From a bacterium (GTDB lineage: Bacteria > Patescibacteriota > Saccharimonadia > Saccharimonadales > SZUA-47), in NCBI GenBank assembly GCA_030428125.1, contig JAUIBF010000003.1, positions 1,516-65,515 of the forward strand: DNA of 64,000 nt. Direction: 5' to 3'. The notes under the pieces were generated by a model. The model was not told the origin of the DNA and ran no database searches. It saw nothing but the letters and a program-made list of their open reading frames with translations. Each line of letters opens with the position of its first letter. The first letter of the stretch is position 1. This document shows positions 36,132 through 49,683 of this stretch, in pieces. A program made the position numbers and the translations under genes.

Positions 36132-37679
36132 GTGGGAAGTCTAAAATCCAAAAATTACAGTTATAAAGAAGAATCAGGGTTTTCATTGCTCGAGGTGATG
36201 GTTTCATTATTTCTCGTTAGCCTACTCCTAGGTGTGATGTCTTCAATCGTGCAGAACGCGATGTCTCTGAATGCTAAAGCAAAACTGAGGTCTGATGCTG
36301 GTGCTTTAGCGTTTAAGAAAATTCAAGATTATATAAATTTAGATTACGACAGCATACCTATAGGTGATGATGGCTTTGCATATGAGGTTGAGGATTTCTC
36401 TTCAGAAGCAGAATCGCTAAATTTGCGAAATGCTTCTGCTAAAGTTTATATTGAACCTGAATCCGAACTGCAAACCCCGACAACTACAAGCAATAATTAC
36501 TCTCAGGTTGTCAGTGCCGACACGGCCTTCGTTAGTGGTTCGGAAATCGCCGCCGTCGATTACGATGATGCCACCGGCGACTGGTATCGCGTATCTAGGA
36601 TTAGTGATAATAATTATTCAAACTATACCTATAGTCGTTACGCATCCAGCCCAGACAATTTGGCATCCCCGTCAATTGACCTAGGATCTTCAACGGTCGT
36701 CGAGACCATTCGGGTAAATTGGTTCTCTTGTGGTTATGGGGCGAATAACTTCAGGGTTGAGGCGAAGGACAGTAATCCTAGTAGCAATAGTGGCTGGACA
36801 ACAATAGTGAGTGGGCTATCTGACAATGGAATATCTTGTTCTGGTGGGAGTAACCCACAGGATATAGATGTAAGTTCAAACTCTACCCCATACCGTCACT
36901 GGAGACTATACTTTATTGATGCCGAAGACGATGACTATGCAGTCATATCAGAGCTAGAAGCGTTTTCTGCTGCCATTCCTGGTGATACTGTAGAGCAAAA
37001 TGGCGCCGATGCTTCAAGTAATCCGGGTCAATTATATTTCAGCAGTTCAGACTTAGAGATGTCAGAGGATGGCTCAAGAGGGCATCAGAGTTTAGGGATG
37101 ATATTCGATGGTGTTAATGCTGCGCAAGGGGCCACGGTAGACAATGCTTATCTAGAATTTACAGCGGACGAATCAGACTCCGATAGCGTTTCTTTGCTTG
37201 TGAGGGGTGCGAATGTCGACAATGCATCACCGTGGTCTGGTGACTATGCTGTTGATAATGCCGTGGACTCTGATGGCTCCGATGGTAGCACCGGTACAAT
37301 TGCGACAGTTTCCTGGAACCCGTCGTCATGGACCAGTGGAGATAATGGTGCCAACACCCAGGTCGATGTTACGGCAATAGTTCAAGAGATTATCAATAGA
37401 GCAGGTTGGAATCCTGGGAACGACATAGCGCTCACTGTACAGTATGTTTCTGGTAGTGGTAGAAGAGTTGCAGAACGTACGCCAGCACCGGAATTAGTAT
37501 TGGAGTGGTCAGAAGAAGTCACTAGTACCCCCGGAGATTATGTGGATGCGGATTTGGATGGGGACGTAGACAACCCGAATCTTTTACGCGCAACGGCCAT
37601 CATTACATACGAGGCATTTGGGAAAACTCATACCTCACAATATTCTACTTTTATTCGTAAATTTGGAGTTAGCGACTAA
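36132..37679 (+). CDS. Prepilin-type (type IV pilin-like) protein with a discoidin (F5/8 type C)-like domain
   Basis: Leader ending in ESG followed by FSLLEVMVSLFLV (G/F-x-x-x-E class III signal). Discoidin-like block IDLG...IRVNW...FRVEAKD...YRHWRLYF...AVISELEAF at ~36665-36965. Confidence 0.75.
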   Translation: MGSLKSKNYSYKEESGFSLLEVMVSLFLVSLLLGVMSSIVQNAMSLNAKAKLRSDAGALAFKKIQDYINLDYDSIPIGDDGFAYEVEDFSSEAESLNLRNASAKVYIEPESELQTPTTTSNNYSQVVSADTAFVSGSEIAAVDYDDATGDWYRVSRISDNNYSNYTYSRYASSPDNLASPSIDLGSSTVVETIRVNWFSCGYGANNFRVEAKDSNPSSNSGWTTIVSGLSDNGISCSGGSNPQDIDVSSNSTPYRHWRLYFIDAEDDDYAVISELEAFSAAIPGDTVEQNGADASSNPGQLYFSSSDLEMSEDGSRGHQSLGMIFDGVNAAQGATVDNAYLEFTADESDSDSVSLLVRGANVDNASPWSGDYAVDNAVDSDGSDGSTGTIATVSWNPSSWTSGDNGANTQVDVTAIVQEIINRAGWNPGNDIALTVQYVSGSGRRVAERTPAPELVLEWSEEVTSTPGDYVDADLDGDVDNPNLLRATAIITYEAFGKTHTSQYSTFIRKFGVSD

Positions 37680-37681
37680 TC

Positions 37682-38476
37682 ATGAAGAAACACACTAATA
37701 ACGAATCAGGATTTTCACTAATTGAAGTACTGACTGTTATACCCATTGCAACTATGCTGGTTGTTATTTTGATATCGGCACTGTTTTCTCAATATGCTAA
37801 CTCGCTTGCAGAGTCGGCCAGGACTACACTACGCACCAACGGTCAGACTATTTTGATAAACCTCCAAGATGAACTTTTATTCACGATTGCTTACGGAGAA
37901 GGATTGGAAGGAAGACTAGATGACCCCAATGAGCCAGCATTGGGCTGGACTTACGACACGGATCCCGACACATTAATAATCAATGAAATAGCACTAGATT
38001 CCACCAGAAGAGACGAAGACAGACACATAGTCAGACAGTTCATAAATAACTGCGAAACATCCAGCATAACTGCAAATCCACTAGCAATTAACAATGTCAT
38101 ATATTTTGTGGAAGATGTAGCAGGCAGTGACTATGACAGGTTAGTAAAAAGGACTATTACGCCTGAATACAACTATTGCAGTATTGATATATCGACCGGG
38201 AGCCCATGCACTCCGGTAACTACAACATGTAAAACAAACGCCAAGGTCACAACTTGTCCCGAAGCACTGGTTGGTTCTGACAATTGTGAATCAAAAGACT
38301 CGGTTCTATCTGAAAATGTACTGGATTTTGATGTGAGATATTTTGCAGAAAATAACATCGAGACTCCATATCCTTCGAATGCTGATAAGTTAGAATTGAC
38401 CTTAGTTTTGGGCGATAAGACATTCGGTAGGCATGTAGAGGCAGAAGTCAAACATACGATTAGGAAGATTAACTAA
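37682..38476 (+). CDS. Prepilin-type minor pilin-like protein
   Basis: NESG followed by FSLIEVLTVIPIATMLVV. Follows the preceding gene after a 2-nt gap. Confidence 0.75.
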   Translation: MKKHTNNESGFSLIEVLTVIPIATMLVVILISALFSQYANSLAESARTTLRTNGQTILINLQDELLFTIAYGEGLEGRLDDPNEPALGWTYDTDPDTLIINEIALDSTRRDEDRHIVRQFINNCETSSITANPLAINNVIYFVEDVAGSDYDRLVKRTITPEYNYCSIDISTGSPCTPVTTTCKTNAKVTTCPEALVGSDNCESKDSVLSENVLDFDVRYFAENNIETPYPSNADKLELTLVLGDKTFGRHVEAEVKHTIRKIN

Positions 38477-39693
38477 TGAGATTCAAGCTACCTAAATTAC
38501 GGAGTAAAAGCAAACAAAATGGGTTTGTTATGATAACGGTGATTACATTCATACCTTTAGTTTTTATCTTAAGCACAGTAACGATAACTATGGCGATACA
38601 GGCCTATAATACCACTACCAATCAGGAGCTAATACGGCAGGCTCAGCTTGCAAGTGCTACGGCCATGGATTATGCAAAAGAACAGTATGAACTAGACCTG
38701 AATTATTCCGGCACAGCGGAGACTACATTGTATGAGACGGATACACATGTAATTACATTTGAAGTTGTTAGTAAGGGTTACTCTAACCCAACCAACACCC
38801 AACAGGACATCCAGGGAATCGGAAGAGTTTATAAAAAAGGCGAGTCGGTAGCTACATACACTAGAGAAATTCAAGGCAAGGTAACTTATACATCGGGATC
38901 GTTATCGAGCGCCAGGTTTATATTCATCATAGATAATTCAGGGTCTATGAGTGAATCTGAATGGCTAGACTCTAAAAGTACGGTCGATGCCGCAATAAAT
39001 TATGTTATCGATAACGCCCCAACTGCAGAAGTTGCCGTGATTCAGTACGGCACAAACCATTACAGTCAGGAGCATAAATATGACGTGACGGTTTCGTTTA
39101 CAAGAGATAAGACTACTGCGACAAACTGGGATAGAGAATTTGGACCAGGTAGTTCTGCCTACTATGATCTACAAGATCATTTGCCTGCATCACTTGCTAG
39201 AATGCGAATCGAGTCAGTTTATGGACCCGGTGATGCGTTAGACTTGAACGGAGCAACCGATATCCAATACGTCCTATTTACAGATGCGTGGAGTGATGGA
39301 TTGCCGTCTGGTAACTGTTGTTCCCACTTAAAAATGCGTGCAGCCGATCCATCAGGGTGGTTCGATGCCAATGGTGGAAGCTTTAGTGTTGGGGCAAATT
39401 TCGAAGAGTATAATTTATTAAAAGATGGAACCGTTTTTTCTGAAGACGGCTATCCCGGTCTTACTTCACAATTTACGATTCTAAATATAAACGACGATAG
39501 CGATACGCAGTCAACTTCTGCTGCAGTTGCTTCACCAGGAGGTTCCTGGAACGGAGCAATCGATAGTAACCCGGACGATCCTGAAGGTAACGGACTTTTA
39601 CCTCGAAGGTTTATAAGTACAACTCTTGCCGCGGGACCAGATGAAATTCTATCGCTCTTGCAAGAAATTATTGAAGAAGAAATTAATATTTAA
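38476..39693 (+). CDS. PilX/GspK-style minor pilin-like protein with a vWA domain
   Basis: QNG followed by FVMITVITFIPLVF (no Glu5). MIDAS-type FIFIIDNSGSMSESE at ~38911. Confidence 0.7.
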   Translation: MRFKLPKLRSKSKQNGFVMITVITFIPLVFILSTVTITMAIQAYNTTTNQELIRQAQLASATAMDYAKEQYELDLNYSGTAETTLYETDTHVITFEVVSKGYSNPTNTQQDIQGIGRVYKKGESVATYTREIQGKVTYTSGSLSSARFIFIIDNSGSMSESEWLDSKSTVDAAINYVIDNAPTAEVAVIQYGTNHYSQEHKYDVTVSFTRDKTTATNWDREFGPGSSAYYDLQDHLPASLARMRIESVYGPGDALDLNGATDIQYVLFTDAWSDGLPSGNCCSHLKMRAADPSGWFDANGGSFSVGANFEEYNLLKDGTVFSEDGYPGLTSQFTILNINDDSDTQSTSAAVASPGGSWNGAIDSNPDDPEGNGLLPRRFISTTLAAGPDEILSLLQEIIEEEINI

Positions 39694-39733: not shown

Positions 39734-40675
39734 ATGATTACTTCTATGGCTACAACAACTAAGAGGGGAGCTACAAAGAAGGCTAGCACGCGTGCTAAGT
39801 CTGCTGCCACCTCAAAGAAAACCACCACTAAAAAGACAACTAAGAAAACCACCACTAAAAAGGCTGCAGCACCAAAGAAAACTACCTCAGCAAAAGTAAC
39901 TAAAGCTCCGAAAAACACAGCCAAGAAGACTGATGTATTCAAGCAGTTAAATATCTGGAACTGGGTATTGGCAGTCTTAGCACTTGGACAGGGTGTGGCA
40001 CTGTTTGTACTTAGCGAAACATCAAAGGTGACAGTAACAACCAACTACTTAACCGAAGACAAGCTGTCAGGTATTGATGTCGTCGCACAGCGTACACTAT
40101 TTGACTTCAATATACTCTACTTGCTACTTGCGTCTCTGGGCGCGACAGCAGTTTTGCACGCTTTACTAGCTTCAGTATTAAGGAAGAGATATGAATCTCA
40201 AGTCAGCAATGGAGTTAACGTTGCTCGCTGGATAGGTCTATCAGTAACAGTTGCAACTGTAATGTTAACAATTTCCATGTTGGCAGGAGTAACCGACCTA
40301 TCAGCGCTAATATTGATAGCAGTAGCTTCTGCGTCAACTGGTTTACTTGCAATCGTACGAGAAGCAAGAGGGACAGCTAGAAAAGCAACTACTGTCGCAA
40401 GTATTCTTGTTGCGCTAGCTCCATGGATTGCAGTAGCACTATACCTAATCGGCGCTAATAAATACGGTGATGGTAGCGTAGATTCTTACATTTACGTACT
40501 TGTAGCCTCAGCGGTGGTTATCTTGTCGCTACTTGATGTAAATATGTATTTGAACAACAAAAAGACTGCTAGATGGGCAGATTATACCTATACAGACAGA
40601 GTTTACATGCTTGTGAATTTTGTACTAGTCTCAGCCGTTGCCTGGCAAGTATACGTTGCACTTTTGGCAAATTAG
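39734..40675 (+). CDS. Heliorhodopsin-like 7-TM protein lacking the Schiff-base lysine, with an N-terminal K/T/A-rich tail
   Basis: Seven hydrophobic segments. The blocks RKRYESQVSNGVNVARW and RVYMLVNFVLVSAVAWQ resemble HeR TM2/3 and TM7 as I recall them. Start at ATG 39734 or 39746. Confidence 0.55.
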   Translation: MITSMATTTKRGATKKASTRAKSAATSKKTTTKKTTKKTTTKKAAAPKKTTSAKVTKAPKNTAKKTDVFKQLNIWNWVLAVLALGQGVALFVLSETSKVTVTTNYLTEDKLSGIDVVAQRTLFDFNILYLLLASLGATAVLHALLASVLRKRYESQVSNGVNVARWIGLSVTVATVMLTISMLAGVTDLSALILIAVASASTGLLAIVREARGTARKATTVASILVALAPWIAVALYLIGANKYGDGSVDSYIYVLVASAVVILSLLDVNMYLNNKKTARWADYTYTDRVYMLVNFVLVSAVAWQVYVALLAN

Positions 40676-40698: not shown

Positions 40699-41964
40699 AT
40701 GTCAAAAAACCCAGTTATTTTGAATCAGCTAGAACTGGGTAAGTTAGTTCATGGTGGGCAATCTATTTCTGAAACTAAAAATGGTAAAAAAATACTCGTC
40801 TGGGGTGGATTGCCGGATGAAGTTGTTGATGTTCGCATAACAAAAAAGAAATCTAGTTACCTAGAAGGTGTTGTCGAAAACGTAGTTAAATCAAGTGAAT
40901 TCCGGATAGAGCCCAAAGAGCCAAAAAGTTTCTTATCAACCAGTCCTTGGCAGGTGATGGAATATGATTTTGAGAATAAATCAAAGCAAGCAATCCTAGA
41001 AGAAACCTTTGAAAGGGAAGGCGTAGAAATTGAGTGGGATGAATTTAAGTTTGAAGACCAGCAGTATGGCTATCGGAACAAACTAGAGATTGGTTTTTGG
41101 GGTGATGACGATGGTCTTCATCTAGCGCACTATGTACGTGGTTCACACGGTAAAGTCACATCTGAGAATAACGCACTTGTTAAAGACTGCATTAATGTGG
41201 CTGCCAGGGATGTATGTAGTGAATTAAATAAATTAGATATTTGGGCAGGTAAACTAAAAACTTTAATTCTAAGATGCAACAAAGAAAACCAGGTGGTCGG
41301 TGCTGTATTTCTAAAAGAAGAAATTGATTTTAGTCAGTTCAAACTGCCTAAGTCATTAAAAGGTTTAGATATATATTTTTCCAATCCGAAAAGTCCTGCG
41401 AGTGTGCCTACTAAATTATTACGAGGCTTAGGCGATACTAACTTAACGGATGAAATCGTGGGACATAAAATTGAATACAATGTACTTTCGTTCTTTCAAG
41501 TCAATCTAGAAATATTCGAAAAAGCACTCAGTCGAATAAAAAAGTATGTGTCAGATGAAAAAAGCGTAGACATGTACAGCGGAGTGGGCACTATCGGTAT
41601 CGCGGTTGGCTCAGAAATATTAGTTGAGTCTGACGAGCAAAACATCAAAACCATTAAACTTAATTCAAAAAATGCAGAGGTGGTCCATGCGCCGAGCGAG
41701 AAAGCTTTGGAATATGTTGACCCAGAAAACATTTTGATAGTCGATCCACCAAGAGCTGGCTTGCACAAAGACCTAGTCAGTAAACTATTACAAGTTCTAC
41801 CACCAAAAATAATTTACTTAAGTTGTAATCCTTCTACGCAAAGCCGGGACGTAAAGCTACTTAGTGAAAAATACAAAATTTCTTTTGCACAAGGTTTTAA
41901 CTTTTTCCCACGTACACCTCATATAGAATCTCTGATATTATTGACTCGAGAAATAAATGATTAA
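40699..41964 (+). CDS. TRAM-domain RNA (uracil-5)-methyltransferase, RlmD/TrmA family
   Basis: N-terminal TRAM-like region, then DMYSGVGTIG, VDPPRAGL and YLSCNPSTQSRD. Confidence 0.75.
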   Translation: MSKNPVILNQLELGKLVHGGQSISETKNGKKILVWGGLPDEVVDVRITKKKSSYLEGVVENVVKSSEFRIEPKEPKSFLSTSPWQVMEYDFENKSKQAILEETFEREGVEIEWDEFKFEDQQYGYRNKLEIGFWGDDDGLHLAHYVRGSHGKVTSENNALVKDCINVAARDVCSELNKLDIWAGKLKTLILRCNKENQVVGAVFLKEEIDFSQFKLPKSLKGLDIYFSNPKSPASVPTKLLRGLGDTNLTDEIVGHKIEYNVLSFFQVNLEIFEKALSRIKKYVSDEKSVDMYSGVGTIGIAVGSEILVESDEQNIKTIKLNSKNAEVVHAPSEKALEYVDPENILIVDPPRAGLHKDLVSKLLQVLPPKIIYLSCNPSTQSRDVKLLSEKYKISFAQGFNFFPRTPHIESLILLTREIND

Positions 41965-42277
41965 AGATAGATATTTCGCCCCACTAACGATTGCCAACTT
42001 AGTAACAAGCCTGTCCTCATTATTATTTTTGTACGAGGCTTTCTTTGGGGAATCAGGTGTCGAAACGGTTGATATCAGGCTTGGCAAACTCTTTTTTGCA
42101 GTGTTTCTAGTTTTGGTAGTTCATGTAATAAGCGCAATAGTTATCGTGCGTTTTTTAGTGGGTAAACTTGCTAAAGCAAGAGTTCAAAAAGGTGATAATC
42201 TGGCGCTGCTTTTAGCTATCATTTTTCCTCTGACTCTATGGTTGCTAAGTATTATGATTCTAACCTGGACAAATTAA
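41957..42277 (+). CDS. Small membrane protein (3 TM)
   Basis: Hydrophobic 106-aa ORF with stop/start overlaps to both neighbours. Confidence 0.45.
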   Translation: MIKDRYFAPLTIANLVTSLSSLLFLYEAFFGESGVETVDIRLGKLFFAVFLVLVVHVISAIVIVRFLVGKLAKARVQKGDNLALLLAIIFPLTLWLLSIMILTWTN

Positions 42278-42960
42278 TGAAATTACACAGATATTATTTA
42301 GCAGACACTGACTTAGTCCATGATTTTTGGATGGATGACGCAGATTTGTTTCATCAGTGGACTAGGGTGCTCAGGTACAAAATAGGTAGAGAACTCATAC
42401 TTTTTAATTCACAGCGTGAAGAACGACTCTATAAAATTGAAAAAATTGGAGATAACGCAGTTAACCTAAAATTAGTTACAGAGCTAGTACCAAAATTACC
42501 CAACAAGGAGGTTTATCTTTGTTTCGCAATGCTGAAAAAAGATAAGAACGAATGGGTTTTACAAAAGGGTACAGAGTTAGGTGTTAGTCACTTTATTCCA
42601 CTACTAACTGATAGAACCGAGAAAACAGGTTGGGATATAGAGCGAGCCGAGAAAATTATAATTGAAGCTAGCGAACAATGTGAGAGAACTGACATCCCTA
42701 AACTTCGCGAACCTCTAAAGCCACAAACGCTTGTTAATGAACTTGAAGGAAAAGTTCCGGTTCTAATTGCAGAGCAGGGTGACAATATTACTCAGACAAA
42801 CTTAGGCAATGTTGCCATTTTGGTCGGGCCTGAAGGTGGCTGGAGTGATGAAGAAAAGAAGTTTTTTGCTGAACGGAACTTACCAAATTTCACTTTATCT
42901 AAATTTACTCTTAGGGCAGAAACAGCGGCCATTACAGCTGCATCTTTTACTCAGTTTTAG
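42277..42960 (+). CDS. rsmE: 16S rRNA (uracil1498-N3)-methyltransferase RsmE
   Basis: Motif GPEGGWSDEE and a SPOUT C-terminal region. ATG 42277 overlaps the upstream stop (TAATG). Confidence 0.8.
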   Translation: MKLHRYYLADTDLVHDFWMDDADLFHQWTRVLRYKIGRELILFNSQREERLYKIEKIGDNAVNLKLVTELVPKLPNKEVYLCFAMLKKDKNEWVLQKGTELGVSHFIPLLTDRTEKTGWDIERAEKIIIEASEQCERTDIPKLREPLKPQTLVNELEGKVPVLIAEQGDNITQTNLGNVAILVGPEGGWSDEEKKFFAERNLPNFTLSKFTLRAETAAITAASFTQF

Positions 42961-46936: not shown

Positions 46937-47064
46937 GCCGTATACTGTATACTAGAACTAATAAATAGTATGTGGTGAATTGCTGATTATATGGGTAGGA
47001 GTGGATACCTAAATCTATGAGAGCGCTCTCACAAGTAGAAGAATAAGTAAAGGTTAGAATTAAA

Positions 47065-49683
47065 GTGAAGAAAACGATTAAGAGAATTCTGGGCGACCCA
47101 CAAGTAAAAACTCTAAAACGCCTACAAAAACGAGTTCCTGATGTAAATAAAATCGAACCTGAAATGGAAAAGCTTTCGGACTCTAAGCTGAAAGACAAAA
47201 CCAAGGAATTCAAGAAACGATTAGAAGAAGAGAAAAAAACAGACCTAGATACTCTGATGCCAGAGGCATTCGCTGCAGTTCGCGAAGCAGCAAAAAGAGT
47301 TCTGGGTCAGCGACACTACGACGTTCAGCTTATCGGTGGCATGGCCTTACATGAAGGCATGGTAGCTGAGATGAAGACAGGTGAAGGTAAAACTCTTGTC
47401 GCAACACTGCCTGTTTATTTAAATGCACTATCCGGAAAGGGTGTGCATGTTGTTACGGTGAACGACTATCTTGCGCAGCGTGATGCTGGTTGGATGGGCG
47501 AAGTTTATCATTTCATGGGACTTTCAGTGGGAGTAATTATCCCCGACCACAGCTATATTTATGATCCTGAGTTTACTAATGATGCTCATGACGACCCAAG
47601 GATGAAACGCCTAAAACCTTGTACGCGTCAAGAAGCCTATCAAGCTGACATTACTTACGGAACCAACAACGAGTATGGCTTTGATTACTTGCGTGACAAT
47701 ATGGTCAAAGAAGAATCGCAGCTAAGGCAGCGCGAGCTAAACTATGCGATAGTTGATGAGGTTGACTCTATCCTGATTGACGAAGCACGTACACCTTTGA
47801 TTATCTCGGCACCGGCAGCTACAAGTGGTGCAAGCTATGGACAGTTCTCTAAAGTTGCCAGGCAGCTTAAGAAAGAAGAGCACTTCGAAGTTGATGAAAA
47901 ACGAAAAGCCGTAACTATGACTGATGATGGCATAAGTTTTGTAGAAAAAGTTTTAGGTATCGACAACCTGTACGACTCTAAGAACATTCGAACAATTTAT
48001 CACTTAGACCAGGCTTTGCGCGCCGAAGCATTATTTAAAAAAGACAAAGACTATGTGGTCACTAAAGACGGCGAAGTAGTGATTGTCGACCAGTTTACAG
48101 GTCGTTTGCTACCGGGAAGACGCTATAACGAAGGTCTTCATCAGGCTATCGAAGCTAAAGAAGGCGTAGAAGTTCAAGAAGAGTCTATGACTCTAGCCAC
48201 GATTTCGTTCCAGAACTATTTCCGACTTTACGACAAGTTGTCTGGAATGACTGGAACTGCTGCAACTGAATCAGAAGAGTTCCATCAGATTTATGAGCTT
48301 AATGTACTGGAAGTACCTTCTAATCGGCCACTAGCTAGAATTGATAAGTCCGACAAGATTTATCGAACCAAGAAAGCAAAGTACAACGCCATAGTTGAAG
48401 AAGTAAAGAGCAGACAAGACCAGGGGCAGCCAGTTTTGATAGGAACCAGCGCGATCGAGCACAACGAAGAGCTGGGCAGGCTTCTCAAAAAGGCCGGGAT
48501 TAAACATCAGATACTTAACGCTAAAAATAACGAACGTGAGGCAGCAATTGTTGAAAAAGCTGGTCAGAAAGGTTCTGTAACTCTAGCCACAAACATCGCC
48601 GGACGTGGTACCGACATCGTGCTTGGCGAAGGCGTTCGAGAAATCGGTGGACTTTGTGTAATTGGTGGTGAGCGACATGAATCTAGACGAATCGACAATC
48701 AGTTGCGAGGTCGTTCTGGTCGTCAGGGTGATCCAGGTGAAACCCAATTCTACGTAAGTACAGAAGATGATTTGATGAGAGTCTTTGGTGGTGATCGAAT
48801 CAAATCTATCATGGATAGGCTTAAAATCGACGATGATGTACCTGTGCAGAACAGAGTTATTTCTAAAAGTCTAGAAGGTGCCCAGAAAAAAGTAGAAGGA
48901 TTCAACTACGATTCGCGTAAAAATGTTGTTCAATACGACGACGTTATGAATCGGCACAGACGTGCTACCTACACAATGCGTCGCGAGATTTTGAAGCATG
49001 CAAACATAACAAATAGAATTAATGAATTCCTTATGGATGAAGTTAAGACCCTGGTCGCTTCACCAGAATCAATGAGCGAAGAATTCGAGACGGTACTAAA
49101 AGAACTGTTCGATTTTGATGATAATACCATCGACAAGTTGTTTGATGTAGAAGCGGAAAAATTTGAGAAAGCACTAACCAAAGAAGTATTAAAGAGGCAT
49201 GTCGAGCAAACCGACTTATTCGGTGAAGAAGTAATGCAAAAAGTAGAGCGAGATATATTCTTGCAGGTTTTAGACAACCTATGGATGCAGCACTTAGAGA
49301 ACATGGACCATCTTCGCCAAGGCATTAACTGGATTTCTGTAGGTCAGCGCGATCCATTAGTTGAATACCGAAGACAGGCTCAAGTATTGTTCGAAGCAAT
49401 GCAACAGGATTTACGTCATGATACGATCAGAGCTCTATTCCACGCACGTCCGGTATCTCAAGACAGACTAGACGACTCTGTGGAAACAGAGCTTACCAAA
49501 GCTGCTAAATCATCTGTTGATAATGCCGATAAAGTATTGAGTATGGATAGTAAAATCGATGACGATGACTTCAAACTAGCTTCAGATACCAGCGCGACTA
49601 AATCAAAACCGTCAAAGAGCCATAAGAAACAAAAGCGTAAAGCAGCTAAGAAGGCTCGTTCAAAACAGCGTAAACGTAAATAA
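47065..49683 (+). CDS. secA: Preprotein translocase ATPase SecA
   Basis: Motifs MKTGEGKTLVATLP, DEVDSILIDEARTPLIIS and TNIAGRGTDI. GTG start. The K/R-rich C-terminus has no Cys zinc motif. Confidence 0.95.
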   Translation: MKKTIKRILGDPQVKTLKRLQKRVPDVNKIEPEMEKLSDSKLKDKTKEFKKRLEEEKKTDLDTLMPEAFAAVREAAKRVLGQRHYDVQLIGGMALHEGMVAEMKTGEGKTLVATLPVYLNALSGKGVHVVTVNDYLAQRDAGWMGEVYHFMGLSVGVIIPDHSYIYDPEFTNDAHDDPRMKRLKPCTRQEAYQADITYGTNNEYGFDYLRDNMVKEESQLRQRELNYAIVDEVDSILIDEARTPLIISAPAATSGASYGQFSKVARQLKKEEHFEVDEKRKAVTMTDDGISFVEKVLGIDNLYDSKNIRTIYHLDQALRAEALFKKDKDYVVTKDGEVVIVDQFTGRLLPGRRYNEGLHQAIEAKEGVEVQEESMTLATISFQNYFRLYDKLSGMTGTAATESEEFHQIYELNVLEVPSNRPLARIDKSDKIYRTKKAKYNAIVEEVKSRQDQGQPVLIGTSAIEHNEELGRLLKKAGIKHQILNAKNNEREAAIVEKAGQKGSVTLATNIAGRGTDIVLGEGVREIGGLCVIGGERHESRRIDNQLRGRSGRQGDPGETQFYVSTEDDLMRVFGGDRIKSIMDRLKIDDDVPVQNRVISKSLEGAQKKVEGFNYDSRKNVVQYDDVMNRHRRATYTMRREILKHANITNRINEFLMDEVKTLVASPESMSEEFETVLKELFDFDDNTIDKLFDVEAEKFEKALTKEVLKRHVEQTDLFGEEVMQKVERDIFLQVLDNLWMQHLENMDHLRQGINWISVGQRDPLVEYRRQAQVLFEAMQQDLRHDTIRALFHARPVSQDRLDDSVETELTKAAKSSVDNADKVLSMDSKIDDDDFKLASDTSATKSKPSKSHKKQKRKAAKKARSKQRKRK

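What the first reader, a model, noticed from the sequence alone, without database searches (positions are those of the whole stretch)
39734..40675. Heliorhodopsin-like 7-TM protein without the retinal lysine, fused to a histone-H1-like tail, directly after the pilin operon
Seen: about 65 aa of K/T/A low complexity (KKTTTKKTTKKTTTKKAAAPKKTT) are followed by seven hydrophobic segments. From my memory of heliorhodopsin 48C12, the TM2/TM3 junction (FFKRYSASLMKNQNIFRWVEYSLSS versus RKRYESQVSNGVNVARWIGLSVTV here) and TM7 (RAYIVLSLVAKSALAWQ versus RVYMLVNFVLVSAVAWQ here) align almost residue for residue. The position of the Schiff-base Lys (K241 in 48C12) is Val here (gtc, 40628-40630), and the last TM contains no Lys at all. 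The TM3 counterion Glu (E107) position is Gly (ggt, 40235-40237). Inference: this is a rhodopsin-fold protein that cannot bind retinal covalently. Its basic tail would be cytoplasmic if HeR topology holds. Its start region overlaps the end of the vWA-pilin gene, so co-transcription with the pilus genes is possible.
Basis: partly seen in the sequence, partly recalled or inferred. Interest (0 to 1): 0.7.

Follow-up and report, generated by a model that had tools for sequence, protein, structure and literature searches.

The report
Heliorhodopsin that lost its retinal site
This gene from a Saccharibacteria (CPR) bacterium encodes a genuine heliorhodopsin-family membrane protein that has lost its light-absorbing retinal site yet is still kept by selection, which suggests that this poorly understood protein family also has a job that does not need light.

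Summary
ORF 39734/39746-40675 (+) is a full-length heliorhodopsin (HeR) family member: Pfam PF18761 E=1.4e-43, and the AF2 model matches TaHeR 6is6 at TM-score 0.93. The Schiff-base Lys is Val (40628-40630) and the counterion Glu is Gly (40235-40237). All five Schiff-base residues and 9 of 10 retinal-wall residues differ from 30 canonical relatives.

It is not a pseudogene. It is the positional orthologue of Lys-containing HeRs in a conserved Saccharibacteria housekeeping block. It forms a clade with three other Lys-less proteins that share two indels. Non-synonymous divergence is 0.23-0.33 while synonymous sites are saturated.

The dimer residues, the cytoplasmic polar cluster, the lipid-facing Trp cluster and the basic loop ICL3 are all kept.

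The ~62-aa K/T/A tail (+21 charge, disordered) is not specific to this protein. A whole Saccharibacteria HeR sub-clade has it, with or without the Lys. It resembles histone H1 only in composition.

The gene does not overlap the upstream gene; the gap is about 52 nt.

An exhaustive search found about 90 Lys-less HeR clusters, so the loss is recurrent.

Most likely it is a light-independent HeR scaffold that acts through its cytoplasmic face. I found no paper describing Lys-less HeRs.

The parts
39746..40675 (+). Coding sequence of the Lys-less heliorhodopsin-family protein. The likely start is ATG 39746 ('MATTTK...'). NCBI calls ATG 39734, and a Logan gene call uses TTG 39707. The stop is at 40673-40675.
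39746..39931 (+). N-terminal polybasic K/T/A low-complexity tail, residues 5-66. It has 21 K+R and no acidic residues, and is predicted to be disordered and cytoplasmic.
   Evidence: Composition. AF2 pLDDT <50. Shared across the clade. Its sequence follows the flanking-gene tree.
39923..40666 (+). Seven-helix HeR-fold domain. AF2 helices are 64-93, 127-146, 163-183, 189-212, 217-244, 251-275 and 284-311.
   Evidence: AF2 pLDDT >90. Foldseek match to 6is6 with TM-score 0.93 and rmsd 1.8 A.
40025..40111 (+). Extracellular loop 1 beta-hairpin (residues 98-126), a hallmark of HeRs. In the Lys-less clade it is 5 residues shorter.
40235..40237 (+). Codon GGT = Gly168, at the position of the counterion Glu (48C12 E107).
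40628..40630 (+). Codon GTC = Val299, at the position of the retinal Schiff-base Lys (48C12 K241).
39980..39982 (+). Ala83, at the position of 48C12 His23 in the Schiff-base cavity.
40616..40618 (+). Asn295, at the position of 48C12 Ser237 (the S of the SxxxK motif).
40559..40573 (+). Basic patch K276-K277-T-A-R280 in intracellular loop 3. It is retained in the Lys-less clade. The equivalent lysines of AbHeR are needed to bind glutamine synthetase.
   Evidence: PMC9529153
39694..39745 (+). Intergenic gap between the vWA-like gene and the HeR start. No promoter-like or terminator-like site was found.
36132..39693 (+). Upstream cluster of three pilin-like genes. The 515-aa protein has an N_methyl prepilin motif. 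The 264-aa protein has a prepilin-like N-terminus. The 405-aa protein has a sub-threshold vWA match.
   Evidence: Synteny with L001, L003/4, L007, L009 and L010.
40699..42960 (+). Downstream conserved neighbours: a TRAM/U5 RNA methyltransferase (40699-41964), a small 106-aa ORF, and an RsmE-type methyltransferase (42238-42960).
   Evidence: The adjacency is conserved in more than 20 Saccharibacteria loci.

Best explanation
The gene encodes a true heliorhodopsin-family 7-TM protein of a Saccharibacteria (CPR) bacterium. Its chromophore site has been taken apart. The Schiff-base Lys is Val and the counterion Glu is Gly. All five residues that hold the Schiff base are replaced, and so are nine of ten retinal-wall residues, mostly by smaller or more polar ones. 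It therefore cannot make a retinylidene pigment and is almost certainly not a photoreceptor.

It is nevertheless a working gene. It sits where canonical HeRs sit in related genomes, and it has evolved under purifying selection since the loss.

What selection has kept is the rest of the HeR machine:
- the fold and the dimer contacts;
- the cytoplasm-facing polar cluster (R104, W105, E149, Y226, E/D230, H80, N101 in 48C12 numbering);
- the lipid-facing Q26/S242/W246 cluster;
- the basic ICL3 patch;
- the long polybasic, disordered N-terminal tail.

I infer that it works as a light-independent, 'always apo' HeR. In this picture it is a membrane-anchored dimer that binds or regulates a cytoplasmic partner or ligand through its basic cytoplasmic face and tail. 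This resembles the way characterised HeRs bind glutamine synthetase through ICL3 lysines, but without light control.

Shown: family membership, loss of the retinal site, selection, orthology, and which residues are retained. Inferred: the topology, partner binding, and the role of the tail. The partner is unknown.
For: - Family and fold.
- Site loss: K241V and E107G. The Schiff-base set is changed at 5 of 5 positions and the retinal wall at 9 of 10, while the same positions are invariant in 30 of 30 Lys-containing relatives. There is no Lys in the membrane core.
- Selection: in the TM domain pS is 0.73-0.87, which is saturated. pN is only 0.23-0.33 among the four Lys-less proteins. YN00 gives omega of about 0.10 for P0001-P0002. 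The ORF is intact in four diverged lineages.
- Orthology: the gene order is the same around Lys-containing L001 and around Lys-less L003, L089, L090 and L091.
- Retained features: surface clusters 5 of 5, dimer residues D127 and Y179, and R104/W105/E149/Y226. Across 95 Lys-less family members, R104 is kept in 89, W105 in 94, E230 in 84 (plus 10 Asp) and W246 in 89.
- Cytoplasmic face: the ICL3 'KK..RW' motif is invariant in the clade, and the equivalent lysines are required for AbHeR-GS binding (PMC9529153).
- Topology: the inside loops carry 11 K+R and 3 D+E, and the outside loops carry 4 and 8.
Against: - No partner has been identified. The neighbouring genes (pilin-like genes, RNA methyltransferases) give no functional clue, and their adjacency looks like inherited gene order.
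- In the AbHeR work, regulation of GS needed light and retinal, so a dark-only role has no precedent among HeRs.
- The amino-acid substitution rate is 2-3 times that of Lys-containing orthologues. Partial relaxation of selection would produce the same pattern.
- The pocket-lining side chains are about 100-330 A^3 smaller in total than in Lys-containing orthologues. That could instead point to a new ligand or a new conduit.
- There are no expression data.
- Only 64 kb of the genome was seen, so a second rhodopsin elsewhere is not excluded.
Confidence: 0.5

Rival explanations
1. It is a receptor or binder for a non-covalent ligand. The emptied and enlarged retinal pocket, merged with the cytoplasmic inner cavity, now holds another hydrophobic or amphipathic molecule. 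Candidates are free retinal or retinoid, a carotenoid, a host-derived lipid or a quinone. The protein senses or sequesters that molecule.
For: - The 20 chromophore-lining positions lose about 300 A^3 of side-chain volume in the window protein instead of being back-filled.
- New polar residues appear in the pocket: F72S, M141T, S237N, A210D.
- The inner-cavity residues that bind anions in 48C12 are kept (bioRxiv 10.1101/767665).
- Saccharibacteria depend on host-derived lipids and retinal (bioRxiv 10.1101/2022.02.13.480300).
Against: - The residues at the former counterion and Lys positions are not conserved within the clade (G/G/F/W and V/V/V/C). That argues against one precisely shaped new site.
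- The volume loss varies from 100 to 330 A^3 between clade members.
- No structure or binding data exist.
Confidence: 0.2
2. It is a regulatory subunit for a functional rhodopsin encoded elsewhere in the genome. It would form hetero-oligomers with a Lys-containing HeR or a type-1 SacR, as was proposed for betaproteobacterial Rh-noK genes that lie in tandem with proteorhodopsin.
For: - The dimer-interface residues D127 and Y179 are retained.
- Some Saccharibacteria genomes carry more than one rhodopsin: 115 sequences in 86 genomes (PMC9166423).
- The Rh-noK precedent is summarised in PMC10308929.
Against: - There is no second HeR in the 64-kb window (tblastn), and no tandem arrangement in any of the nine Lys-less loci fetched.
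- The Lys-less gene occupies the orthologous slot of the Lys-containing gene. It replaces that gene rather than accompanying it.
Confidence: 0.12
3. The tail is the functional part. The 7-TM domain serves mainly as a membrane anchor for a +21 disordered tail. The tail would tether nucleic acid (nucleoid or RNA) or anionic lipids to the membrane of a very small cell, or would simply enforce the N-in topology.
For: - The tail is conserved in length and composition in both Lys-containing and Lys-less forms, with pN below pS.
- It has no acidic residues.
- Only one other protein in the window, SecA, has a comparable basic tail.
Against: - Many Saccharibacteria HeRs, including the Lys-less L063 and P0076, have N-termini of only 10-30 aa. 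The tail is therefore dispensable for whatever keeps Lys-less HeRs.
- Specific polar residues inside the 7-TM domain remain conserved, which a mere anchor would not need.
Confidence: 0.1
4. It is a passive channel or transporter. Removing retinal and shrinking the core residues opened a conduit through the HeR fold.
For: - Viral HeRs can transport protons (cited in PMC12873467).
- Core residues are replaced by smaller and more polar ones.
Against: - The hydrophobic extracellular half typical of HeRs is not obviously replaced by a polar pathway.
- No ion-binding motif is conserved.
- The sites in question vary among clade members.
Confidence: 0.05
5. It is a decaying relic. Light sensing became useless, for example through lack of retinal or a dark habitat, and the gene is drifting towards loss with no remaining function.
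For: - The amino-acid substitution rate is 2-3 times that of Lys-containing orthologues.
- Identity to the sister genome is 47% in the TM domain, against 71-84% for the neighbouring genes.
- The residues at the former key sites vary.
Against: - Synonymous sites are saturated, yet pN is only 0.23-0.33.
- Reading frames are intact in four diverged lineages, and 106 columns are invariant among three of them.
- Non-chromophore functional residues are selectively retained.
- About 90 Lys-less clusters persist across the family.
Confidence: 0.04

Closest known systems
Canonical heliorhodopsins (48C12, TaHeR; Pfam PF18761; Saccharimonadia HeRs of Chiriac et al. 2022, PMC9166423)
   Same: It is homologous over the full length. 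The predicted fold is the same, with the long ECL1 beta-hairpin, and the topology is N-in. Dimer and surface residues are shared. The chromosomal slot is the same as for Lys-containing Saccharibacteria HeRs.
   Different: It has no Schiff-base Lys, no counterion Glu and no SxxxK motif, and most retinal-contact residues are replaced. It cannot be a retinylidene photoreceptor.
Rh-noK / Lys-less type-1 opsins (betaproteobacterial Rh-noK, haloarchaeal opsins without a canonical retinal site, freshwater FArhodopsins; summarised in PMC10308929 and PMC7714340)
   Same: It has the rhodopsin fold without the retinal-binding Lys. It is retained as an intact gene, and a retinal-independent or regulatory role is suspected.
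   Different: Those proteins belong to the type-1 lineage with the opposite topology. The betaproteobacterial Rh-noK genes lie in tandem with a functional pump. Here the gene is in the HeR lineage, stands alone, and replaces the Lys-containing orthologue at the same locus.
Fungal opsin-related proteins (HSP30/YRO2/MRH1; mentioned in PMC7714340)
   Same: They are Lys-less seven-helix proteins thought to act through protein-protein interaction in the membrane, for example by regulating the H+-ATPase or by acting as chaperones.
   Different: They are eukaryotic, of the type-1 lineage, and not homologous at family level. The comparison is an analogy of principle only.
HeRs with N-terminal cytoplasmic additions (MORN-HeR, Znf-HeR and 'ntv' extensions; Bulzu et al. 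2021, PMC8612252)
   Same: The extra cytoplasmic N-terminal segment is restricted to one lineage and is suspected to recruit partners.
   Different: Here the extension is a low-complexity polybasic disordered region, not a folded domain. I could not check whether it corresponds to one of the published ntv1-10 variants.
Histone H1 C-terminal domain and bacterial H1-like basic tails
   Same: It is lysine-rich, free of acidic residues and disordered.
   Different: No sequence family match was found. The composition is K/T/A (31% K, 31% T) rather than K/A/P. It is attached to a membrane protein.

Membership tests
Heliorhodopsin protein family (Pfam PF18761 / NCBIfam NF038020) | A significant full-length match to the family profile, above the curated cut-off | tested here: met
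   Pfam 149.5 bits against 26.7, covering profile positions 1-241 of 242. NCBIfam 138.7 bits against 100.
Heliorhodopsin protein family (Pfam PF18761 / NCBIfam NF038020) | The seven-helix HeR fold with a long beta-hairpin between TM1 and TM2 | tested here: met
   In the AF2 model the TM domain has pLDDT >90 and strands at 98-108 and 115-126. Foldseek gives TM-score 0.93 and rmsd 1.8 A to 6is6, against about 0.55 for type-1 rhodopsins. This is a predicted structure, not a solved one.
Heliorhodopsin protein family (Pfam PF18761 / NCBIfam NF038020) | Inverted topology, with the N-terminus in the cytoplasm | tested here: met
   The positive-inside count gives 11 K+R and 3 D+E on the predicted inside loops, plus a +21 tail, against 4 and 8 on the outside loops. 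This is inferred from sequence and was not measured.
Heliorhodopsin as a retinylidene photoreceptor | A Schiff-base Lys in TM7 (SxxxK motif; 48C12 K241) | tested here: not met
   The position is Val299, and Ser237 is replaced by Asn. There is no Lys in any membrane core.
Heliorhodopsin as a retinylidene photoreceptor | A counterion Glu in TM3 (48C12 E107) | tested here: not met
   The position is Gly168.
Heliorhodopsin as a retinylidene photoreceptor | Binds all-trans retinal and shows a photocycle | not testable with these tools
   This needs expression with retinal and spectroscopy. The sequence predicts no covalent pigment.
Rh-noK (Lys-less microbial rhodopsin-like proteins) | Rhodopsin fold without the retinal-binding Lys | tested here: met
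Rh-noK (Lys-less microbial rhodopsin-like proteins) | Type-1 lineage and a tandem arrangement with a functional pump, as in the described betaproteobacterial examples | tested here: not met
   It belongs to the HeR lineage. There is no second rhodopsin in the window or next to any fetched Lys-less locus.
Linker histone H1 | Homology to H1, or at least the K/A/P-rich composition of its C-terminal domain | tested here: not met
   No linker-histone family appears in the Pfam or NCBIfam scans even at E<=10. The composition is K19 T19 A12 P2 over 62 residues.
Type IV pilus operon member | Functional or transcriptional linkage to the pilin genes | tested here: inconclusive
   The gene is on the same strand after a 52-nt gap with no predicted terminator. 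The adjacency is conserved in six related lineages. It is absent in more distant Saccharibacteria, where HeR keeps only its downstream neighbours. No RNA data are available.

The most novel reading that the evidence does not exclude
The loss of the chromophore lysine is not an accident of one gene. It is a recurrent, selectively tolerated switch in the positional orthologues of HeR across Saccharibacteria. There are about 90 Lys-less clusters at 50% identity and at least 37 state changes on a rough tree. The 7-TM part of the gene even appears to have been exchanged between related genomes at the same locus.

If this is real, the HeR scaffold has a core function that does not need light, and retinal is only an optional modulator. 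These natural apo-HeRs, with their polybasic tails, would then be a direct handle on the still-unknown cellular role of heliorhodopsins.
Probability: 0.35. Interest if true: 0.8.

Novelty: new variant of a known kind. Interest (0 to 1): 0.62.

Why it matters
The cellular function of heliorhodopsins is still largely unknown. Only a few partner interactions have been reported, namely glutamine synthetase and photolyase.

A clade of HeR orthologues has discarded the whole retinal site. It has kept the dimer residues, the cytoplasmic polar cluster, the basic loop and the tail under purifying selection. This argues that part of the HeR function is independent of light, and it points to the residues that carry that function.

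It also fits the biology of Saccharibacteria, which cannot make retinal and must obtain it from hosts.

There are two practical consequences. First, the NCBIfam 'equivalog' model scores this protein above its cut-off, so annotation pipelines will name it 'heliorhodopsin HeR' although it cannot be a rhodopsin. Second, published surveys that filter for SxxxK will have discarded such proteins, so their abundance has probably been overlooked.

Tried and rejected
- The exact-sequence look-up of P0001 found no contig. A start-codon variant, P0047, later gave the same strain (L086).
It therefore missed the window's own genome and the Lys-less clade. It did establish the Saccharibacteria context.
- Supplementary Table S15 of Chiriac et al., which lists TM7 motifs of CPR HeRs, is not held.
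- Corrected dS could not be computed for most pairs because of saturation. I used the raw proportions pN and pS instead.
- Promoter and terminator scans were at chance level and say nothing about operon structure.
- Rfam and tRNA scans of the window found nothing.
- H1 homology of the tail was rejected because there was no family hit.
- Independent convergent loss in the window and L003 lineages would explain the tree conflict, but I rejected it. The two proteins share two indels, and 34 of 51 co-changed conserved positions carry the same derived residue.
- Recent foreign acquisition was rejected because the GC content is ordinary.
- ORF 19755-20510, a 6-TM protein, was checked as a possible second rhodopsin. 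It has no Pfam family.
- Seven literature searches found no description of Lys-less heliorhodopsins. The library lacks most subscription journals, so absence is not proof.
Full report
**1. The observation**

The + strand carries an ORF that ends at 40675. ATG 39734 is the start used in the NCBI protein P0001, which is 100% identical. All 45 homologues from other organisms, however, begin at the conserved 'MATT(T)K'. ATG 39746 is therefore the more likely start.

The upstream vWA-like gene stops at 39693. The gap is 40-52 nt.

The family assignment is far beyond chance:
- Pfam Heliorhodopsin scores 149.5 bits (E=1.4e-43) and covers the whole profile.
- The NCBIfam HeR equivalog scores 138.7 bits against a cut-off of 100.
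- The solved HeRs TaHeR and 48C12 match at E=1e-27 and 2e-20.

In those alignments, and in a MAFFT alignment numbered on 48C12, K241 aligns with Val299 (GTC, 40628-40630). E107 aligns with Gly168 (GGT, 40235-40237). Every Lys after residue 63 lies in a loop, at a helix end, or in the cytoplasmic juxtamembrane stretch at the start of TM1, so none can substitute.

**2. Structure and topology**

An AlphaFold2 model built on a 30-sequence alignment gives pLDDT above 90 for seven helices and for the long TM1-TM2 beta-hairpin typical of HeRs. Residues 1-60 score below 50 and are predicted to be disordered.

Foldseek places the model on TaHeR 6is6 with TM-score 0.93 and rmsd 1.8 A. Type-1 rhodopsins reach only about 0.55.

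The predicted inside loops carry 11 K+R and 3 D+E, and the outside loops carry 4 and 8. With the +21 tail this supports the N-in topology of HeRs. The topology is inferred, not measured.

**3. Organism and locus**

The nearest loci in species-representative genomes are all Candidatus Saccharibacteria MAGs. The same strain, with all ten neighbouring proteins 100% identical, occurs in run SRR24442554. That run is a biofloc aquaculture metagenome (PMC10582022).

The gene lies in a conserved housekeeping block with this order: M50 peptidase, Rce1-like protease, aminoacyl-tRNA synthetase, GreA, aminoacyl-tRNA synthetase, a variable segment, HeR, U5 RNA methyltransferase, RsmE, PDDEXK nuclease, SerRS, HPF, SecA.

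In the window and five related lineages the variable segment holds three pilin-like genes. More than 20 Saccharibacteria loci share only the downstream neighbours.

No terminator or promoter signal stands out in the short gaps on either side of the gene. Co-transcription is possible but untested. The adjacency looks like inherited gene order rather than a functional link.

**4. What was lost and what was kept**

I used the structural residue classes defined for 48C12 (bioRxiv 10.1101/767665). I compared the window protein and its two closest Lys-less relatives with 30 Lys-containing relatives in which these positions are invariant.

| Residue class (48C12 numbering) | State in the Lys-less proteins |
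|---|---|
| Schiff-base set K241, S237, E107, S111, S76 | changed at 5 of 5 |
| Retinal wall (10 positions) | changed at 9 of 10 in the window protein (for example F72S, M115V, M141T, N142G, F206L) |
| H23 and Y108 | replaced |
| H80, N101, N16, R104, Y92, W105, E149, Y226, E/D230, W173 | kept |
| Lipid-facing clusters Q26/S242/W246 and Q247/S201 | kept |
| Dimer residues D127 and Y179 | kept |

The ICL3 motif 'KK..RW' is invariant in the clade. The equivalent lysines of AbHeR are required for binding glutamine synthetase (PMC9529153).

The pocket is not back-filled. The summed side-chain volume at 20 lining positions is 2472 A^3, against 2769 A^3 in Lys-containing orthologues. This is a sequence-based estimate only.

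**5. The gene is not a pseudogene**

Four Lys-less proteins form a clade with 100% bootstrap support (three of them in the bootstrapped tree; P0050 joins them in the later family tree). They are P0001, P0002 (L005), P0003 (L003/4) and P0050 (L089, GCA_964617685.1). They share a 5-residue deletion in ECL1 and a 4-residue deletion in the TM4-TM5 intracellular loop.

Of 51 conserved positions changed in both P0001 and P0003, 34 carry the same derived residue.

In the TM domain, synonymous differences are saturated in every pair (pS 0.73-0.87). Non-synonymous differences are:
- 0.23-0.33 within the Lys-less clade;
- 0.10-0.14 among Lys-containing orthologues;
- 0.35-0.41 between the two groups.

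YN00 gives omega of about 0.10 for P0001-P0002 and 0.047 for a Lys-containing pair. The protein therefore evolves two to three times faster than canonical orthologues but remains clearly constrained.

The residues at the two former key sites are not conserved. The Lys position reads V/V/V/C and the Glu position reads G/G/F/W.

**6. Positional orthology and a tree conflict**

The Lys-containing HeR P0004 (L001) has the same neighbours as the window gene. Those neighbours are 71-84% identical to the window's, whereas the HeR as a whole is only 51% identical and its TM domain 47%.

Flanking-gene trees on both sides join the window with L001 at 100% bootstrap. They place the Lys-less L003 outside.

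The tail agrees with the flanks: it is 77% identical to P0004 and 58-61% identical to P0002 and P0003. From about residue 73 to the stop, however, the window protein is closest to the Lys-less proteins.

This mosaic needs one of two things. Either the 7-TM-coding part was replaced by recombination between related Saccharibacteria, in an unknown direction, or two allele types persisted for a long time. GC content is ordinary. I could not resolve this point.

**7. The tail**

Residues 5-66 hold 19 K, 2 R, 19 T, 12 A and no acidic residue.

Tails of 60-82 aa with 19-29 K+R occur in one sub-clade of Saccharibacteria HeRs, in both Lys-containing and Lys-less forms. Other Saccharibacteria, Actinobacteria, Chloroflexi and archaeal HeRs have N-termini of 10-30 aa.

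The tail matches no histone family. In the window, only SecA has a comparable basic tail.

N-terminal extensions of HeRs have been catalogued before (ntv1-10, MORN-HeR, Znf-HeR; PMC8612252). I could not check whether this tail is among them.

**8. How common is the loss?**

An exhaustive HMMER search of 1.84 billion cluster representatives found 880 HeR-family proteins at E<=0.001.

I pooled the best 150 of these with the earlier hits, giving 201 sequences. Of these, 95 lack the Lys. The replacements include V (20), Q (12), T (10), S (10) and A (9). This sample is biased towards relatives of a Lys-less query.

On a neighbour-joining tree built without the chromophore columns, the Lys state changes at least 37 times. 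The tree is rough.

Two Lys-less representatives match named Saccharibacteria MAGs: P0131 is identical to L036 and P0133 is 74% identical to L063. Two distant Lys-less proteins, P0055 and P0076, sit in the same housekeeping block as the window gene.

Across all 95 Lys-less proteins, R104, W105, E149, E230, Y226 and W246 stay conserved, while E107 is kept in only 19.

**9. Interpretation**

The chromophore site is gone, so covalent retinal binding is excluded by sequence. Selection maintains the rest of the protein, especially its cytoplasmic face.

The best-supported reading is a light-independent HeR scaffold that binds or regulates a cytoplasmic partner or ligand through the ICL3 patch, the polar cluster and perhaps the tail. 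The partner is unknown.

The rivals are listed with their tests: a non-covalent ligand binder, a subunit of another rhodopsin, a tail anchor, a channel, and a decaying relic.

**10. Comparison with what is known**

CPR heliorhodopsins are known: 80 were reported in Saccharimonadia, with the most common TM7 motifs SLVAK, SLIAK and SFVAK (PMC9166423).

Lys-less rhodopsin-like proteins are also known, but in the type-1 lineage (Rh-noK, haloarchaeal opsins, freshwater FArhodopsins, fungal ORPs; PMC10308929 and PMC7714340).

Published pipelines screen HeR candidates for SxxxK, which would hide Lys-less members.

I found no paper describing Lys-less heliorhodopsins. The library lacks most subscription journals, so this is not proof of absence.

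I therefore rate the finding as a new variant of a known kind. It is real and of moderate to high interest, because it bears on the open question of what heliorhodopsins do.

Noticed in passing
window 39746-40675 compared with L001, L003, L005, L089: There is a mosaic signal inside the gene. The tail and both flanks group the window with the genome that carries a Lys-containing HeR (L001). The 7-TM part groups with Lys-less proteins of more distant genomes. This suggests recombination at the tail/TM1 junction, or long-lived alternative alleles.
   Followed up: partly
window 36132-39693: Three co-directional pilin-like genes lie upstream. The 515-aa protein has an N_methyl prepilin motif and a weak NedA-like galactose-binding domain. 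The 264-aa protein has a 'GFSLIEV' N-terminus. The 405-aa protein has a sub-threshold vWA match. They are conserved upstream of HeR only in a sub-group of Saccharibacteria.
   Followed up: partly
window 47047-49680: SecA carries a strongly basic C-terminal tail, with 16 K/R in 30 residues. It is the only other polybasic tail among the ORFs of the window.
   Followed up: no
L001 8987-9430; L005 1577-1849: A NUDIX hydrolase gene lies between HeR and the methyltransferase in L001 (Lys-containing) and L005 (Lys-less). It is absent from the window, L003 and L089. Its presence does not track the Lys state.
   Followed up: no
window 41957-42277: A 106-aa hydrophobic ORF overlaps the end of the U5 methyltransferase gene and the start of the RsmE gene. 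It was seen only in the same-strain locus L086 and has no family match.
   Followed up: no
window 19755-20510: A 252-aa ORF with six hydrophobic segments has no Pfam family. It was checked as a possible second rhodopsin and is not one by Pfam.
   Followed up: partly
window 1-64000: No tRNA gene and no Rfam family at gathering threshold was found anywhere in the 64 kb.
   Followed up: no
P0054 (JGI, 315 aa): This relative groups with the Lys-less clade on the rough tree. It has Lys replaced by Tyr but keeps the counterion Glu and most retinal-wall residues. It may represent an early stage of the loss.
   Followed up: no
NCBIfam NF038020 versus window 39734-40672: The 'equivalog' model HeR scores this Lys-less protein above its cut-off (138.7 against 100). 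Automatic annotation will therefore call it a heliorhodopsin although it lacks the chromophore site.
   Followed up: yes
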